Of a DNA stretch of 64,000 nucleotides, positions 45,151-50,159 are shown one piece after another (the stretch's first letter is position 1; the number at the start of each line of letters is the position of its first letter). The DNA is taken from contig JADDPR010000266.1 of assembly GCA_016781775.1 (NCBI GenBank), positions 6,485 through 70,484 on the forward strand, in the 5' to 3' direction. The notes under the pieces are model-generated. The model was not told the origin of the DNA and did not search any database. It saw only the letters and a program-made list of their open reading frames with translations. The position numbers and the translations under genes are program-made. This DNA is from Rubrobacter sp. Lineage in GTDB: Bacteria > Actinomycetota > Rubrobacteria > Rubrobacterales > Rubrobacteraceae.

Positions 45151-45437
45151 TCGAGCGGGGCCTTATTCGGGTTATCGGCACAGAACTCGCCCTTTCGAGC
45201 CCTTTTTACCCTCCCCCCCAGGGTACTGGACCCCCTATACAAAACGCAACCACAAGCGTGAGCCCAGTGATATCGAGGCAGTGTTGCGTTAGCTCCGGCG
45301 GAGCGATCGAGTGGAACATGTAGGTGAGGCTGCGAAGCTGGCACTACATATTGAGCGACAGAGAAATAGGCGTTGGAACTCGGTCTTCCCTTGCGGATAG
45401 ACAGGGATGGGAGTCCGATGGGAAGCGGGTAATAGGG

Positions 45438-45511
45438 TGGGCCCACCAGGACTCGAACCTGGGACCGTCCGATTATGAGTCGGATGCTCTAACCAACTGA
45501 GCTATGGGCCC
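45438..45511 (-). tRNA. tRNA with CAT anticodon, most likely tRNA-Ile2 (lysidine-modified)
   Basis: GGGCCCA/TGGGCCC acceptor stem, D-loop AGTTGGTTA, anticodon loop CTCATAA, GGTTCGAGTCC; lacks initiator features; CCA not encoded. Confidence 0.88.
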
Positions 45512-45530
45512 AAGAATCTTGGGCGGTGAG

Positions 45531-45602
45531 CTGCCCTGGTAGGACTCGAACCTACAACCCTCCGATTAACAGTCGGATGCTCTGCCATTGAGCTACAGGG
45601 CA
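45531..45602 (-). tRNA. tRNA-Asn(GTT)
   Basis: TGCCCTG/CAGGGCA acceptor stem, anticodon loop CTGTTAA, T-arm GGTTCGAGTCC, discriminator G. Confidence 0.95.
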
Positions 45603-45613
45603 ATGATGTTCAA

Positions 45614-45642
45614 AGTATACGGCCCACGGCCTCCGGCTTCAA
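45614..45642 (-). promoter_or_regulatory. tRNA operon promoter TTGAAG-N17-TATACT
   Basis: Near-consensus hexamers with exact 17-nt spacer, ending 11 nt before tRNA-Asn. Confidence 0.75.
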
Positions 45643-48551
45643 GATTCCGGGGTCATGTTGCTTGCGGCCTGTCTGAGCTGCCTGGCCTCCGTATGCAGGC
45701 GAAGTTTCTCGTCGAAGTCTTCGGTACGGGCCTTGGCCCTCTCGCGGCTGAGGGCGCCGAGCCTGAACCAGGCCGCGCGCAACGAAGCCTCCGAGGGATC
45801 CAGCCTCTCCCCCTCCGCTTGGAGCGCGCTCACCTCGTCGAGCAACGGACGAACCCGCTCGTCGGCGAGGAGGGCGCCCGGCTCGTCCGCGTGTTCGAGA
45901 AGCAAGGCGTAGATGTGCGCCTGGGTTTCGTCGCCAAAGTCTTTCAGCTTCAGAACAAAGGGCGCATCGAGGATACCGGGCGCCTCCACCCCCTCGGCGA
46001 TCGCACGGGCGGCCAGGCCGGGACGGGCAAACGCGTGGGCGAGCACCTCGCGGCCCGCCTCGATCACGGGGTCCCGGGGCCGGCGACGCGCTGGACGATC
46101 TGCTTTGCCTGGCTCTCCATCCCCGGGCTCGGGCGCGGACCTCAGGGCTCGGGCGTTCACGCCCAGGGCTTCGGTGGCGAGCCGCAGGGCATCCCGATAA
46201 AAGACGGGGTCCCGTATCTCCTTTATAAGCCCCTTAATTTCGGACATGACCCGCGAGCGTTCGGCGGCTCCCGAGCCGCGCGCTCGGTCCGCTTTGCGGC
46301 GGAAGATGTACTCGAGGACCGGCACGGCCCCCGAGAGAAGCTCGCGGAACTCCTCGGCGGGGTGCTCGAGCAGCCAATCGGCCGGGTCTTCGGAGAGCCG
46401 GAGCACGCGGAGGTCGAGCTTCAACTCGGCGGCCGTGGCGGCCGCCCTTTCGACGGCCTTCTCCCCCGCCTCGTCGGGGTCGAAGATCAGGTGAATAGTC
46501 TCTGCGTAACCGCTCAACGACTTGAGGTGTTGCTCGGTCATCGCCGTGCCAAGGGTGGCGACGGAGTTTTTGATCCCGGCCTGATTGAGCATCAAGACGT
46601 CGGTGTACCCCTCGACGATGAGGGCGACCTTCTCACGCCGCATCTCCGCGGCGGCCTGGGGGAGACCGTAGAGCAGGGAGCGCTTGTTGAAGAGCTCCGT
46701 CTCCGGGGAGTTCAGGTACTTCGGCTTCGCGTCCCCAAGGGTGCGAGCGCCGAAGCCGACGATGCGCCCGCGCAAGTCGGAGATCGGGAACGTCACCCGA
46801 TCCACGAACCTCTCACCCCCACGAGGCGACAGCAGACCGGCAGCGTCCAGAGCGCTACGCTCCAGCCCGATCTTGCGCGCCGCCGCCGAGAAACTCGCCG
46901 CCCCGCGAGGCGGGGCGTACCCCAAACGAAATTCTTCGATAGTAGAAGACCCCATTCCGCGCCCCTTCAGGTAGCGGCGAGCTTCCTCGGCGGTCGAAGC
47001 TTTGAGGAAGTACTTATGATAGTAGACGGCGGCGGCTGCGAGGGCCTTGTAGGCGGAGCGGCGTCGGGCGGTGCGCGTCTTGGCGGCGCGTTCCTCCCCC
47101 GGCGAGCGCCCCTCGAACTCCAGCTCGATCCCGAATCGCTCGCCGAGGTGCGAGACCGCCTCGGCGAAGGGGAGGTTCTTCAGTTCCATAACGAGCTTGA
47201 TGGCGTCGCCTCCGCGCTGGCAGTTATGGGTGGTGCCCATTTTGGTCAGGAACGTATGAGAGCCCGTCGTGGTGATGTCGACTACCGTGGCGGGGTTCTT
47301 CCGCTCGTCCTCGATCTCCTGCACCACCGACCAGTAGTACGTCGTGCCGTTTACTGGCGCGAAGAACCCCTTCATGGATTCCCTACGCGGCATGTGTAGG
47401 GCGAAGGTTTTCCTGCGGCTCACGCCGTCTTTGGCCGTCCGAGCAGGGTAGGAGTTTATCGAGACCGGCTTCTCCATCTGAATTAGAAGGGCGAAGACCC
47501 CGTAAGCCAGTTCTTCCGAGACGGTAGCAGCGCCCACGGACCCGTTTTGTGTGCGCCCATCTCCATCAAGGTAGCCTTGAACAAATGCAGCCTGGGTTTC
47601 AGGCGTCCAATTCAAAGCTTCTATAGGGACACGCTTCTCCGCGCATCCACTTCCGAACCAGTGGCGGAACAGCGCAGATAGATCCGTGCTGGAGCACGTT
47701 ACCTCGCAGATGTTTTTCTCCTGACGGACCCTCTTCGTGCTCGGTTTTGCGAACTCCTCATCGAGTATTCTCGAAACCTCTTCGGCCAGGGTCTCGCTCT
47801 CGTCGGCGCTGAATGACCACTTAACGCCGCCCCTGTATAAGGACCCTTCGGCTGCGTACACGCCGTACAACCAGGCCGTCCTGTCGTTCACGTGCAGCGA
47901 GGTGGTTCGCACGTTTCTCGGACCGCTCGTATAGGGTTTGATCACGTGCTCGCCTATAAGAGGAGCGTCTTCCCTCTCGACCGCTGGGATCACGGGGTAG
48001 AGCAAAAAATCTCCCTCACGAATATCGGCGGCGTGCTTCACGGACAGCTTGGCGTCCGAACCCTTTCGTCCGAGCTTACTGGAAAACCTTATCTGTTCGC
48101 CGCCCCTGTGCCGTAGGTGAAGGCGTGGGACAGCCCGTAGTGCCTCTTCCTTCTCGACGAAGACGCACCAGTGGTCCGGCGTGAGCTCCAGCCCCTCCTT
48201 CGCAGCACCGGTACGGATCTTCAAGGTGGGCTTGGATTTAAAGACCTTGTCCGTGATGGTCTCGCGCCGTCCGTCGAGACCGATAACCTCGTCGCCGATC
48301 TCGGCCGCGGCTATGGGGATCAAGCCCCTGGAGGTCCAGATGCGCTCGTTGGCTTCCAAGCACCCGAAGCAGTGATAGAAGCCCTTCTCTGGGGAGACGC
48401 CGAAGGAGGGTGATTTCTCGTTGTGGTCGGGGTAGGGGCAGAGGCCGGTGAAGCGGGCGCCCACCCGGCGGAGCGCGGTGAACTCGGAGGCGACCTCGAC
48501 GATGTTCGCCCCCTCCCTTACGGCCTCTATGCTGCGCTGCGAGATCCTCAC
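45639..48551 (-). CDS. dnaG: DNA primase DnaG, intein-containing precursor
   Basis: CPYPDHNEKSPSF...YHCFG|intein|CQRGGDAI, FPI...VGFGAR, KYLNSPETELFNK, VEGYTDV, FDPDEAG; GTG start 7 nt after TAGAAT. Confidence 0.97.
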   Translation of the reverse strand: MRISQRSIEAVREGANIVEVASEFTALRRVGARFTGLCPYPDHNEKSPSFGVSPEKGFYHCFGCLEANERIWTSRGLIPIAAAEIGDEVIGLDGRRETITDKVFKSKPTLKIRTGAAKEGLELTPDHWCVFVEKEEALRAVPRLHLRHRGGEQIRFSSKLGRKGSDAKLSVKHAADIREGDFLLYPVIPAVEREDAPLIGEHVIKPYTSGPRNVRTTSLHVNDRTAWLYGVYAAEGSLYRGGVKWSFSADESETLAEEVSRILDEEFAKPSTKRVRQEKNICEVTCSSTDLSALFRHWFGSGCAEKRVPIEALNWTPETQAAFVQGYLDGDGRTQNGSVGAATVSEELAYGVFALLIQMEKPVSINSYPARTAKDGVSRRKTFALHMPRRESMKGFFAPVNGTTYYWSVVQEIEDERKNPATVVDITTTGSHTFLTKMGTTHNCQRGGDAIKLVMELKNLPFAEAVSHLGERFGIELEFEGRSPGEERAAKTRTARRRSAYKALAAAAVYYHKYFLKASTAEEARRYLKGRGMGSSTIEEFRLGYAPPRGAASFSAAARKIGLERSALDAAGLLSPRGGERFVDRVTFPISDLRGRIVGFGARTLGDAKPKYLNSPETELFNKRSLLYGLPQAAAEMRREKVALIVEGYTDVLMLNQAGIKNSVATLGTAMTEQHLKSLSGYAETIHLIFDPDEAGEKAVERAAATAAELKLDLRVLRLSEDPADWLLEHPAEEFRELLSGAVPVLEYIFRRKADRARGSGAAERSRVMSEIKGLIKEIRDPVFYRDALRLATEALGVNARALRSAPEPGDGEPGKADRPARRRPRDPVIEAGREVLAHAFARPGLAARAIAEGVEAPGILDAPFVLKLKDFGDETQAHIYALLLEHADEPGALLADERVRPLLDEVSALQAEGERLDPSEASLRAAWFRLGALSRERAKARTEDFDEKLRLHTEARQLRQAASNMTPES
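47223..48362 (-). mobile_element. Intein (380 aa) with LAGLIDADG homing endonuclease in DnaG
   Basis: Block A CLEANERIWT, block B LTPDH, LAGLIDADG blocks WLYGVYAAEGS and FVQGYLDGDG, block F VVDITT..SHTF, block G THN/C. Confidence 0.96.
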
Positions 48552-49102
48552 TCCGCACATTCTACGGTGAACGACGCGGATGACCTAGGGGAGGGTGCTC
48601 GCCCGGGTGGTCGAGTTGCCAGGTCCTGCCCGCACGGCCCCTCTCCAACCGCCTGGTGAGTCCCCGAGGCTTCCTCCAAGAGCCTCCTCGGACGGCACGC
48701 CCCTCTCCTCTTGCACGAAGAGAACGTAGCAGCCTCATGGGCATGCGTTGGCCACGTCCGGCGGCAAGCTTCCGCGCATGTCCTTATTTTCCTACCGCAC
48801 GGTTGTGGCCGAGGGCATACGAGATCAGTTCAAGGGGGCGGTGAATTCGCGTTGGTCCAAGAGCCGAGCAACCGGTTTCGCTCCTCAAGAGGGCCCGAGC
48901 AGGAAAAGTAAGAGCGGCTCCAATTGAATTTGTGCTTCTTGCGGGGCGATTATCGAGCGTGTAGGCGGGGTAAGTGCGTCGAAGAGTGCGCCCCCAGGGG
49001 AGCACAGTGACCAGCTTCGTTAGTCCCGAAGGGCATGTTGTTGCGAGGCTTCCTCGCAGCGAGACGGAAGCACGGCACGAGCCTCAACCTCGACCCTCAG
49101 TT

Positions 49103-49936
49103 TCACCCGAGGTTCTTTAAATCTCCGGAAGCGAAGTTTCGTTCCATCCAACCGACCGCGTGCTCGACAAGACCACGCGCGTCGAAAAGGTGGGCGGTGC
49201 CCTCTCCAACCGGTCCGCTCCTGCCCCTCCCGGCCGCAAGGGCAGAACGCGCAACGTACTCGATGTAGTCCTCATCGCCAAGGATGCGTTCGTAGGGGAA
49301 GGCACCGTCGGCGGTGTCGATGTCCGAGAAGGTCCGCCAGATGCGCTCACCCCCCTCGATCACGGGCGAGCCGTAGCTCACGCGGCGTTTGCCTGAAACC
49401 TCTGCGATAGCCTCCGCATGATGCACGAGCGTCACGGTTTCCAGCGGCGCACCCAGCACCGCCACTTGGCCACCGAGTTCGACGATCCGGGCATAGGGCG
49501 TGCCGGCGCCGTAGGCGTCGTCGTAGGGGTGAGAGGCGGTGAGCACTTCGGCGAGGGGACCGACGGCCGCCACGCCCGCCTCCGGGTGCAGGCTGTGGCG
49601 CGCCCCCGGCCAGGTCCTCAACGCCTCGGCGACCCGTCCGTGTTCGCGACGGGAGAGCGCGACGCGCGGGTCGTATGCCGGGTGCTCTTCGAGGTAGATC
49701 CGCCTGGTTTCGTCGTCCAGCGCGTCGAGGTCGTCGGGCGGCTCGTCCTGCCAGCCCGTGTAGGCCATGAGCGTCCCCCCGGGTCCCAAGGTGTCGAGAA
49801 GGGCGCGCACGACGGTCTCAGCGCCGCCGACCACTCTGCCGAGCGCGGACATCCGGCAATGAACCATCGCCACCCCGCCCGGCGCCAGCCCGAGCCTCGT
49901 CAGGTCACGAGCCAGCCCCGAACGCGCCACCAACAT
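49103..49936 (-). CDS. Aminoglycoside N(3)-acetyltransferase family protein
   Basis: LGLAPGGVAMVHCRMSALGRVVGGA, GTLM, GRVAEALRTWPGARHSLHP, LGAPLETVTLVHHAE; ATG 7 nt after TACCGT. Confidence 0.9.
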   Translation of the reverse strand: MLVARSGLARDLTRLGLAPGGVAMVHCRMSALGRVVGGAETVVRALLDTLGPGGTLMAYTGWQDEPPDDLDALDDETRRIYLEEHPAYDPRVALSRREHGRVAEALRTWPGARHSLHPEAGVAAVGPLAEVLTASHPYDDAYGAGTPYARIVELGGQVAVLGAPLETVTLVHHAEAIAEVSGKRRVSYGSPVIEGGERIWRTFSDIDTADGAFPYERILGDEDYIEYVARSALAAGRGRSGPVGEGTAHLFDARGLVEHAVGWMERNFASGDLKNLG

Positions 49937-50159
49937 ACCCCGCACGGTAGCAGGAGCACCGAAGTCAAGCCACGCCAACGACGGCGAACGTTTCTCCGTT
50001 TCCGGCGAACGAGGGGGCCGCGATTTTTTTGAGGGTGTTCGTACATACGGCCCGGGAAGTTTCGCCCGACTGCGCATGGGGCGCTCGTCTTCACCGCTCC
50101 GGGACCGTCTCTGGACTTCGTACGCGCTCCGGCGCTTCGGGATGCGTGTTTACCTCGCG

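What the first reader, a model, noticed from the sequence alone, without database searches (positions are those of the whole stretch)
47223..48362. Homing-endonuclease intein splits the zinc-binding motif of DnaG primase; the +1 nucleophile is a Zn ligand
Seen: DnaG reads CPYPDH...YHCFG, then a 380-aa insert beginning CL and ending THN, then CQRGGD. The insert has class-1 intein blocks A, B (TxxH), F and G and two LAGLIDADG motifs, and it looks more AT-rich than its flanks. Established: DnaG's CHC2 domain needs the last CxxC to bind Zn2+ and recognise priming sites; Zn2+ and Cys oxidation inhibit splicing of several inteins; commonly reported bacterial intein hosts are DnaB, DnaE, RecA, GyrA, SufB and RNR. 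Inference: the precursor cannot complete its native Zn site until it splices, and the intein's own Cys1 sits where the fourth ligand belongs (CFG-C). Zn binding or oxidation could therefore hold the precursor unspliced, giving a metal/redox-gated switch on replication priming. I do not know of this insertion site being characterised, but I cannot check novelty here.
Basis: partly seen in the sequence, partly recalled or inferred. Interest (0 to 1): 0.88.

Follow-up and report, generated by a model that had tools for sequence, protein, structure and literature searches.

The report
Mobile intein in primase zinc finger
The DNA primase gene of this soil actinobacterium carries a 380-residue intein with a homing endonuclease directly in front of the last zinc-binding cysteine; the same site is occupied in many other primases and empty in close relatives, so it is most likely a selfish mobile element that must splice out before primase works, and the proposed zinc/redox switch is possible but untested.

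Summary
Observation confirmed. Window 47223-48362 (minus strand) is a 380-aa class-1 intein with a LAGLIDADG endonuclease in the only full dnaG found in the genome, between HCFG and the fourth CHC2 zinc ligand. Hint HMM scores are below cut-off, but the predicted fold matches solved inteins end to end (Z 32). It is not rare: 18 of 104 Rubrobacteraceae genomes carry it, empty alleles with 95-98% identical exteins exist, and 73 of 98 examined relatives at 50% clustering sit at the same CHC2 position in DnaG-type, primase-helicase and stand-alone CHC2 proteins. Patchy presence, intein/extein tree conflict and a conserved endonuclease point to ongoing homing. The precursor's Cys-3/Cys1 CxxC resembles the known MoaA redox trap, but it follows automatically from the site; nothing here shows regulation. 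DnaG is a listed intein host (PMC4760082); I found no paper describing this site. This scan noted the same site twice before on other genomes. Verdict: real, new member of a known kind.

The parts
45639..48560 (-). dnaG primase precursor ORF (973 aa from ATG; a GTG three codons in may be the true start)
   Evidence: only full dnaG found in the assembly
48363..48548 (-). N-extein: first part of the CHC2 zinc-binding domain, ending HCFG
48438..48440 (-). Zn ligand 1, Cys of CPYPDH
   Evidence: invariant in 85 of 85 aligned filled alleles; aligned to 1D0Q via an empty allele
48423..48425 (-). Zn ligand 2, His of CPYPDH
   Evidence: 85 of 85
48369..48371 (-). Zn ligand 3 = extein Cys-3; forms CFG-C with intein Cys1
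   Evidence: 85 of 85
47223..48362 (-). 380-aa class-1 intein with LAGLIDADG homing endonuclease
48360..48362 (-). intein Cys1 (block A nucleophile)
   Evidence: sequence; 85 of 85
48171..48182 (-). block B TPDH (Thr B:7, His B:10)
   Evidence: Thr 84 of 85, His 85 of 85
47844..47870 (-). LAGLIDADG motif 1 (LYGVYAAEG; predicted catalytic E172)
   Evidence: acidic in 78 of 85
47634..47636 (-). block D Lys243; the profile position aligns with a Lys of PI-SceI
   Evidence: Lys 84, Arg 1 of 85; profile alignment
47556..47582 (-). LAGLIDADG motif 2 (VQGYLDGDG; predicted catalytic D268)
   Evidence: acidic in 76 of 85; PF14528 38 bits, above cut-off
47244..47285 (-). block F (Asp362, His369)
   Evidence: Asp 85 of 85, His 84 of 85
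47223..47228 (-). block G His-Asn
   Evidence: Asn 85 of 85, His 83 of 85
47220..47222 (-). +1 Cys: splicing nucleophile and Zn ligand 4 of the spliced primase
47217..47219 (-). +2 Gln: fixed in filled Rubrobacteraceae alleles, variable in empty ones
45639..47222 (-). C-extein: rest of zinc domain, catalytic core (DNAG_N, Toprim), C-terminal part

Best explanation
This is a class-1 intein with a LAGLIDADG homing endonuclease inserted before the fourth zinc-ligand cysteine of the genome's DnaG primase, and it likely persists as a selfish element that splices itself out of the protein and likely spreads by homing into empty dnaG alleles. Shown: anatomy, boundaries, identity of the +1 residue with the zinc ligand, filled and empty alleles among relatives, purifying selection on both domains, lateral movement of the intein between Rubrobacteraceae lineages. 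Inferred from the standard class-1 mechanism: Cys1 N-S shift, transfer to Cys+1, Asn380 cyclisation, S-N shift, giving HCFG-CQRGG, the sequence of natural empty alleles; the zinc knuckle then folds. Inferred: the site is favoured because it offers an invariant Cys nucleophile inside a conserved motif of an essential gene, so imprecise loss is lethal and the DNA target is shared by many primases. Any zinc or oxidant sensitivity of splicing is expected as a by-product of three Cys and a His gathered at the splice junction, not shown to be a selected switch.
For: Fold matches endonuclease-bearing inteins over exactly residues 63-442. Splicing residues near-invariant in 85 aligned alleles. Only full dnaG in the 89.9%-complete assembly. 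Empty alleles differ by exactly the insert: P0074 vs P0136/P0139/P0144 at 94.6-95.4% extein identity, P0105 vs P0128 at 98.3%. 18 of 104 family genomes filled, 8 of 49 high-quality ones. On a 38-row C-extein tree filled/empty needs 9 changes, at least 7 forced by starred branches; shuffles average 12.2, 24 of 500 as low. Lateral transfer: P0074/P0079 inteins 90.8% identical, exteins 68.0%; 12 of 23 strong intein splits conflict with strong extein splits, 6 shared. Endonuclease dN/dS 0.17, like the splicing domain (0.15-0.16) and extein (0.18), 17 alleles; 85 of 95 inteins are exactly 380 aa, range 374-382. Same site filled in 73 of 98 examined cluster representatives of varied architecture.
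Against: No experiment: splicing and DNA cutting are inferred. Intein and extein identities still correlate (Spearman 0.59-0.65), so much inheritance is vertical and old. About one allele in ten has lost a predicted catalytic acid. Synonymous sites are near saturation (pS 0.63-0.65), so dN/dS is rough. A selfish history does not exclude later use as a sensor. No empty allele was seen in the 4 runs laid.
Confidence: 0.8

Rival explanations
1. Domesticated conditional splicing: Cys-3 and Cys1 form a disulfide, or Zn2+ is captured by Cys37, His42, Cys-3 and Cys1 (a surrogate CHC2 site), holding the precursor unspliced under oxidative or zinc stress and so pausing new primase production.
For: CFG-C has the Cys-3/Cys1 spacing of the P. 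abyssi MoaA and engineered DnaE redox traps (passages in PMC3922620, PMC10663303, PMC11766414). Zn binds the initiating nucleophile of mycobacterial DnaBi1 and blocks splicing in vivo (PMC7360933). Three native Zn ligands precede Cys1 in sequence. In the precursor model residues 31-60 score pLDDT 58-68 against 90-95 in an empty allele, so the knuckle is not predicted to be natively formed before splicing (AF2 models no zinc; weak evidence).
Against: The arrangement is forced by the site; Cys-3 is invariant in empty alleles too (26 of 26). Most family genomes lack the intein and near-identical strains differ. No mini-intein among 95 alleles, where a kept regulator would not need the endonuclease. 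Four nested relatives sit in terminase large subunits without Cys-3. A gate on splicing affects only newly made primase (inference).
Confidence: 0.13
2. Splicing-independent function: the precursor binds zinc through Cys1 or the spatially close Cys+1 and primes with the intein as a tolerated insert.
For: Inteins bring their ends together, so Cys+1 lies near Cys-3; in the precursor model the helices on both sides of the insert are confidently predicted (pLDDT 85-91). Splicing-independent insertions are known in an engineered reporter (PMC7360933).
Against: All splicing residues are conserved with dN/dS about 0.15, which indicates that splicing is selected; the zinc knuckle is poorly predicted in the precursor.
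Confidence: 0.04
3. Assembly artefact, or a decayed non-splicing relic.
For: Hint HMM scores are below cut-off; the genome is a 578-contig assembly.
Against: In-frame, stop-free, 105 other 90%-identity clusters with the same junctions, a contig from another sample spanning both junctions, no second dnaG found.
Confidence: 0.01

Closest known systems
Class-1 inteins with LAGLIDADG (DOD) homing endonuclease: Tli and Pho VMA inteins (7QSU, 7QSS, 7QST), PI-PkoII (2CW7), PI-SceI (1VDE), PI-PfuI (1DQ3)
   Same: Fold and domain layout (Z 20-32 over about 300-330 residues); blocks A, B, F, G; two LAGLIDADG motifs and a block D Lys.
   Different: 17-21% identity only; host is bacterial DnaG; Hint HMMs score below cut-off.
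DnaG inteins of the bacterial census (Novikova et al. 2016, PMC4760082: 14 inteins, COG0358, Actinobacteria and Proteobacteria)
   Same: Same host protein and a phylum that includes this family.
   Different: The passages and searchable supplement give no insertion site or accession list for DnaG (supplement file 1 could not be searched), so I cannot say whether those 14 use this site; the only Rubrobacter row in that supplement, R. xylanophilus, has '-' for inteins.
Mycobacteriophage TOPRIM/primase inteins (Kelley et al. 2016, PMC5050341; bioRxiv 10.1101/2025.01.02.630785)
   Same: Inteins in DnaG-like primases.
   Different: Stated to lie in the TOPRIM active site, not in the CHC2 zinc finger.
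Pyrococcus abyssi MoaA intein and engineered Ssp DnaE CPGC redox trap (Callahan et al. 2011, seen only through reviews)
   Same: Extein Cys-3 and intein Cys1 in a CxxC; host Cys are likely metal ligands (MoaA ligand role recalled, not from a call).
   Different: Disulfide shown there, untested here; CFG-C rather than CPGC; here both Cys-3 and Cys+1 are zinc ligands of a replication enzyme.
Mycobacterium smegmatis DnaBi1 zinc- and oxidation-sensitive intein (PMC7360933; PMC6195587 seen as listing only)
   Same: Replisome host; splicing nucleophile can bind zinc.
   Different: Class 3, internal Cys118, zinc bound by intein residues only.

Membership tests
Class-1 intein | Hint fold whose ends coincide with the insert boundaries | tested here: met
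   AF2 model, Foldseek and VIA: residues 63-442 align to residue 1 to end of solved inteins
Class-1 intein | Hint-domain HMM above curated cut-off | tested here: not met
   Intein_splicing 20 bits vs 35.8; TIGR01445 13.9 vs 24.5; several same-site relatives do pass (P0164, P0197, P0200, P0229, P0245). A detection limit, not a defining property.
Class-1 intein | Cys1/Ser1, Thr B:7, His B:10, Asp F:4, His-Asn end, Cys/Ser/Thr +1 | tested here: met
   all present and conserved in 83-85 of 85 alleles; definitions from PMC4031507 passages
Class-1 intein | In-frame insertion with natural empty alleles that match the predicted spliced product | tested here: met
Class-1 intein | Demonstrated protein splicing | not testable with these tools
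   needs expression
LAGLIDADG homing endonuclease (intein-encoded) | Two LAGLIDADG helices with acidic catalytic residues and a block D Lys | tested here: met
   E172, K243, D268 present; PF14528 above cut-off
LAGLIDADG homing endonuclease (intein-encoded) | Signs of homing: patchy distribution, lateral transfer, purifying selection | tested here: met
LAGLIDADG homing endonuclease (intein-encoded) | Cleavage of the empty site | not testable with these tools
   needs an in vitro or two-plasmid assay
Bacterial DnaG primase (CHC2 zinc domain + Toprim core) | Three Cys and one His zinc ligands, DNAG_N and Toprim domains | tested here: met
   ligand set from PMC6163395 passage
Conditional-splicing (redox-trap or zinc-gated) intein | Extein Cys at -3 beside intein Cys1 | tested here: met
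   sequence
Conditional-splicing (redox-trap or zinc-gated) intein | Comparative sign that the trap is selected (kept intein, loss of endonuclease, Cys-3 specific to filled alleles) | tested here: inconclusive
   none of these signs found; Cys-3 is fixed by its zinc role, so the test has little power
Conditional-splicing (redox-trap or zinc-gated) intein | Reversible block of splicing by oxidant or Zn2+, in the native host | not testable with these tools
   needs splicing assays

The most novel reading that the evidence does not exclude
The last cysteine of the primase CHC2 zinc finger is an undescribed, widely used intein hotspot at which the precursor presents a surrogate metal site (Cys, His, Cys-3 from the host plus intein Cys1), so zinc loading or oxidation of the host's own zinc domain competes with splicing and gates primase maturation in bacteria and phages.
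Probability: 0.13. Interest if true: 0.7.

Novelty: new member of a known kind. Interest (0 to 1): 0.27.

Why it matters
As it stands it adds a well-populated intein family at a site that I did not find described, one that standard Hint HMMs miss in this protein, so such DnaG proteins can be annotated without the intein. It offers a natural test system, with filled and empty alleles at 95-98% identity and a residue that is both splicing nucleophile and zinc ligand, for the open question whether inteins at metal sites are regulators or parasites. If the gate proved real it would tie replication priming to zinc or redox state through the host protein's own ligands.

Tried and rejected
Single-sequence Pfam/NCBIfam Hint search: below cut-off; PDB phmmer best E 0.013; resolved by profile and structure. 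Search for long proteins sharing the zinc-domain words found only proteins already seen. Annotated phage collection: 121 records matched, 1 covered 80% or more of the query and its intein is at a non-CHC2 site. Sequencing runs: no RNA holder listed, so no statement on expression; runs X9 and X10, whose word share of about 0.47 suggested an empty allele, proved to be low-coverage fragments of the filled allele, and no joint skipping the intein was listed in 4 runs. No second intein of this family in the genome. Callahan et al. 2011 was not held and is cited through reviews; PMC7886860, PMC2677866 and PMC8861304 passages had nothing on this site. InBase could not be consulted. No complex prediction was run: halves of a split domain pass by likeness to solved structures and zinc cannot be scored. 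Rejected: artefact, mini-intein, class 2/3 mechanism (Cys1 and Asp F:4 present), uniqueness of the site.
Full report
1. Observation. Window 47223-48362 on the minus strand is 380 codons without a stop, from CLEANE to MGTTHN, in frame inside a 973-aa ORF at 45639-48560. The flanks read CPYPDH...FYHCFG and CQRGGD. Pfam finds the CHC2 zinc finger in two stretches, DNAG_N and Toprim; NCBIfam finds dnaG (TIGR01391, 361 bits) in two stretches. The insert has 58.6% GC against 66.1% and 67.2% for the exteins, lower than all but 0.9% of 3031 same-size genome windows. Close homologues bearing organism names are Rubrobacteraceae genomes assembled from metagenomes, and the runs that hold at least 0.4 of the stretch's words are soil or sediment metagenomes.

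2. It is an intein. Sequence HMMs are weak: LAGLIDADG_3 passes its cut-off (38 bits) but Intein_splicing does not (20 vs 35.8 bits). An AlphaFold2 model of zinc domain plus insert (85-row alignment, mean pLDDT 88.3) hits endonuclease-bearing inteins first (TliVMA E 6.5e-19; Z 32.4, rmsd 2.9 A, 317 residues), and many solved inteins align from their residue 1 to their end on model residues 63-442, exactly the proposed boundaries. In 85 aligned filled alleles Cys1, His B:10, Asp F:4, Asn and Cys+1 are invariant; Thr B:7 is kept in 84 and the penultimate His in 83. These are the class-1 residues named in PMC4031507 (passages).

3. The +1 residue is the zinc ligand. An empty allele from a relative aligns over 97 residues to the solved zinc domain 1D0Q (E 3.6e-26) with CFGC on CFGC; the domain binds zinc by three Cys and one His (PMC6163395 passage). 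The window's gene is the only full dnaG found in the 89.9%-complete assembly; a second CHC2 ORF on contig C99 showed no match to the catalytic core. Splicing is therefore very probably required (inference). In the precursor model the region holding three ligands (residues 31-60) scores pLDDT 58-68, against 90-95 in the model of an empty allele (26-row alignment); this fits an unformed knuckle, but AF2 models no metal.

4. Distribution. Of the best 120 of 767 homologues, 106 including the window's own have a complete intein at this site, 2 are partial and 12 are empty. Of 104 family genomes 20 matched the intein, 18 over its full length (one of the 18 is the unpublished G072); 8 of 49 high-quality genomes carry it. 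Of the 30 loci returned from 61 relatives, 5 were filled and 25 empty (5 of the empty ones are from unpublished genomes and were left out of trees and tests). Single 90%-identity clusters hold both forms: P0074 against three empty members at 94.6-95.4%, P0105 against P0128 at 98.3%, the gap being exactly the intein. A profile search of 1.84 billion cluster representatives gave 824 hits at E up to 1e-30 and listed 150. I examined the 105 with near-full-length matches: 69 met a strict CHC2 pattern with Cys+1, 74 had Cys at -3. After dropping 7 rows with unclear ends and using a looser pattern, 73 of 98 were CHC2-site inteins (where 4 further known rows were added). Their hosts include DnaG-type proteins, primase-helicase fusions, proteins with the CHC2 domain after the Toprim core, Prim-Pol proteins, a CHC2-UDG fusion and short stand-alone CHC2 proteins (49 scanned). 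On the intein tree the CHC2 label needs 4 changes against 22.3 for shuffles (0 of 500 as low); there is a separate well-supported 14-row group of DnaG inteins, so one or two invasions of the site are both possible (quick tree, long branches among the non-CHC2 rows).

5. Evidence for homing. On a tree of 38 C-exteins (15 filled, 23 empty; duplicates, short and unpublished rows left out) presence changes 9 times, at least 7 on starred branches; shuffles average 12.2 and 24 of 500 are as low. Among 95 filled proteins, some pairs have far closer inteins than exteins (P0074/P0079 90.8% vs 68.0%; P0032/P0053 91.3% vs 70.7%), and 12 of 23 strong intein splits conflict with strong extein splits while 6 are shared. 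Against this, identities correlate overall (0.59, 0.65), so vertical descent also matters. Median dN/dS over 17 alleles is 0.17 for the endonuclease, 0.15-0.16 for the splicing halves and 0.18 for the extein, with synonymous sites near saturation. Predicted catalytic residues are kept in most alleles: acidic at 172 in 78 of 85, Lys/Arg at 243 in 85, acidic at 268 in 76. Lengths are 374-382 aa in all 95; one 339-aa allele outside that set (P0104) is the only notable deletion among complete ones.

6. A flank signal. The +2 residue is Gln in 17 of 17 filled loci but 12 of 25 empty published loci; in a larger set, which holds some alleles twice, 109 of 109 against 17 of 37, with 17 independent pairs giving a median sign-test p of 0.004. 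Outside this family +2 varies (Gly in 30 of 69). Three readings remain: endonuclease specificity with resistant non-Gln alleles, co-conversion during homing, or a splicing need (a +2 effect is reported for Npu DnaE, PMC4031507 passage). The closest empty relatives in the genome search (92-94% identical N-extein) read CGKGG.

7. The switch idea. The chemistry is plausible. A Cys-3/Cys1 disulfide blocks splicing of the P. abyssi MoaA intein and of an engineered DnaE intein (review passages, PMC3922620, PMC10663303, PMC11766414; the primary paper was not held), and zinc on the initiating Cys blocks DnaBi1 in mycobacteria (PMC7360933 passages). But any Cys1 intein before the last Cys of a CxxC shows this pattern, Cys-3 is invariant in empty alleles too, most relatives do without the intein, the endonuclease is maintained, and four relatives nested in the family sit in terminase large subunits with no Cys-3. 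I put in vitro sensitivity to zinc or oxidant at better than even (inference from the above) and a selected physiological switch at about 0.13.

8. What is known. DnaG is in the top 15 bacterial intein hosts, 14 cases in Actinobacteria and Proteobacteria (PMC4760082, passages and supplement file 2; file 1 not searchable and may bear on this) and in a review table (PMC5874633 passage). Phage primase inteins are reported in the TOPRIM active site (PMC5050341 passage) and as a host class in a 2025 preprint (passages only, its supplements are closed). Six full-text searches listed no paper on an intein in the CHC2 finger; subscription papers and InBase were not covered. A sequence look-up in the scan's notes found nothing; a word look-up found two earlier reports of the same site in other genomes with the same verdict; they are unchecked notes and were read after my own analysis.

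9. Verdict. A real, well-formed, mobile intein at a frequently used and apparently undescribed site: a new member of a known kind. Interest 0.27; the zinc/redox gate would merit about 0.7 if shown.

Noticed in passing
proteins P0175, P0185, P0194, P0195: Four inteins nested within the CHC2-site family (99% SH-aLRT with P0191) sit at xxP|CTTNAVRG in phage terminase large subunits: a likely extein switch from primase zinc finger to terminase.
   Followed up: partly
window 47217-47219 and relatives: Gln+2 is fixed in filled Rubrobacteraceae alleles and often replaced (Ser, Lys, Gly) in empty ones; possibly endonuclease-resistant alleles.
   Followed up: partly
G010:C53 (L005) and G010:C21 (L048): One assembly holds a filled dnaG fragment (68% to the query) and an empty one (86-92%); may be mixed binning (4% contamination) or two copies.
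   Followed up: no
G004:C1:2020465-2022245 (L047): Empty dnaG of a near-complete relative appears frameshifted near residue 226 of the intein-less protein; likely a sequencing error in an essential gene.
   Followed up: no
P0103: Allele whose intein ends inside block F and lacks the +1 Cys and the next extein helices: decayed or misassembled.
   Followed up: no
P0182: Family member with only a 21-residue leader and Ala at +1: possibly a free-standing endonuclease derived from the intein.
   Followed up: no
L049:548-3649 (G005:C7; unpublished genome): 1034-aa ORF with a related intein at QGSEGA|CTGF and what looks like a second insert; the motif recalls a papain-like catalytic Cys (recalled, not tested). 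Rests on an unpublished genome.
   Followed up: partly
L050:1-2895 (G056:C30) and L055 (G053:C115): Distantly related inteins in a SufB-like protein and in a sugar-epimerase-like protein (labels recalled from sequence, not scanned).
   Followed up: no
L075:2093-5206 (MW679026.1, Eggerthella phage LE2-3): Protein annotated 'tRNA synthetase', three genes after the portal gene, carries a related intein at SMGLN|CETTTCSVC; the annotation looks doubtful.
   Followed up: partly
window 49103-50077 (-): Aminoglycoside 3-N-acetyltransferase family gene (PF02522, 196 bits) directly upstream of dnaG, after a LOG/SLOG family gene and an HD-domain dGTPase-like gene.
   Followed up: partly
window 45435-45602 (-): tRNA-Asn and tRNA-Met genes between dnaG and mraZ-rsmH at the head of the cell-division cluster.
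   Followed up: yes
G000:C99 near 669-998: Stand-alone CHC2 zinc-finger ORF elsewhere in the same genome with an empty site (CYG|CGMRGD), not invaded.
   Followed up: partly
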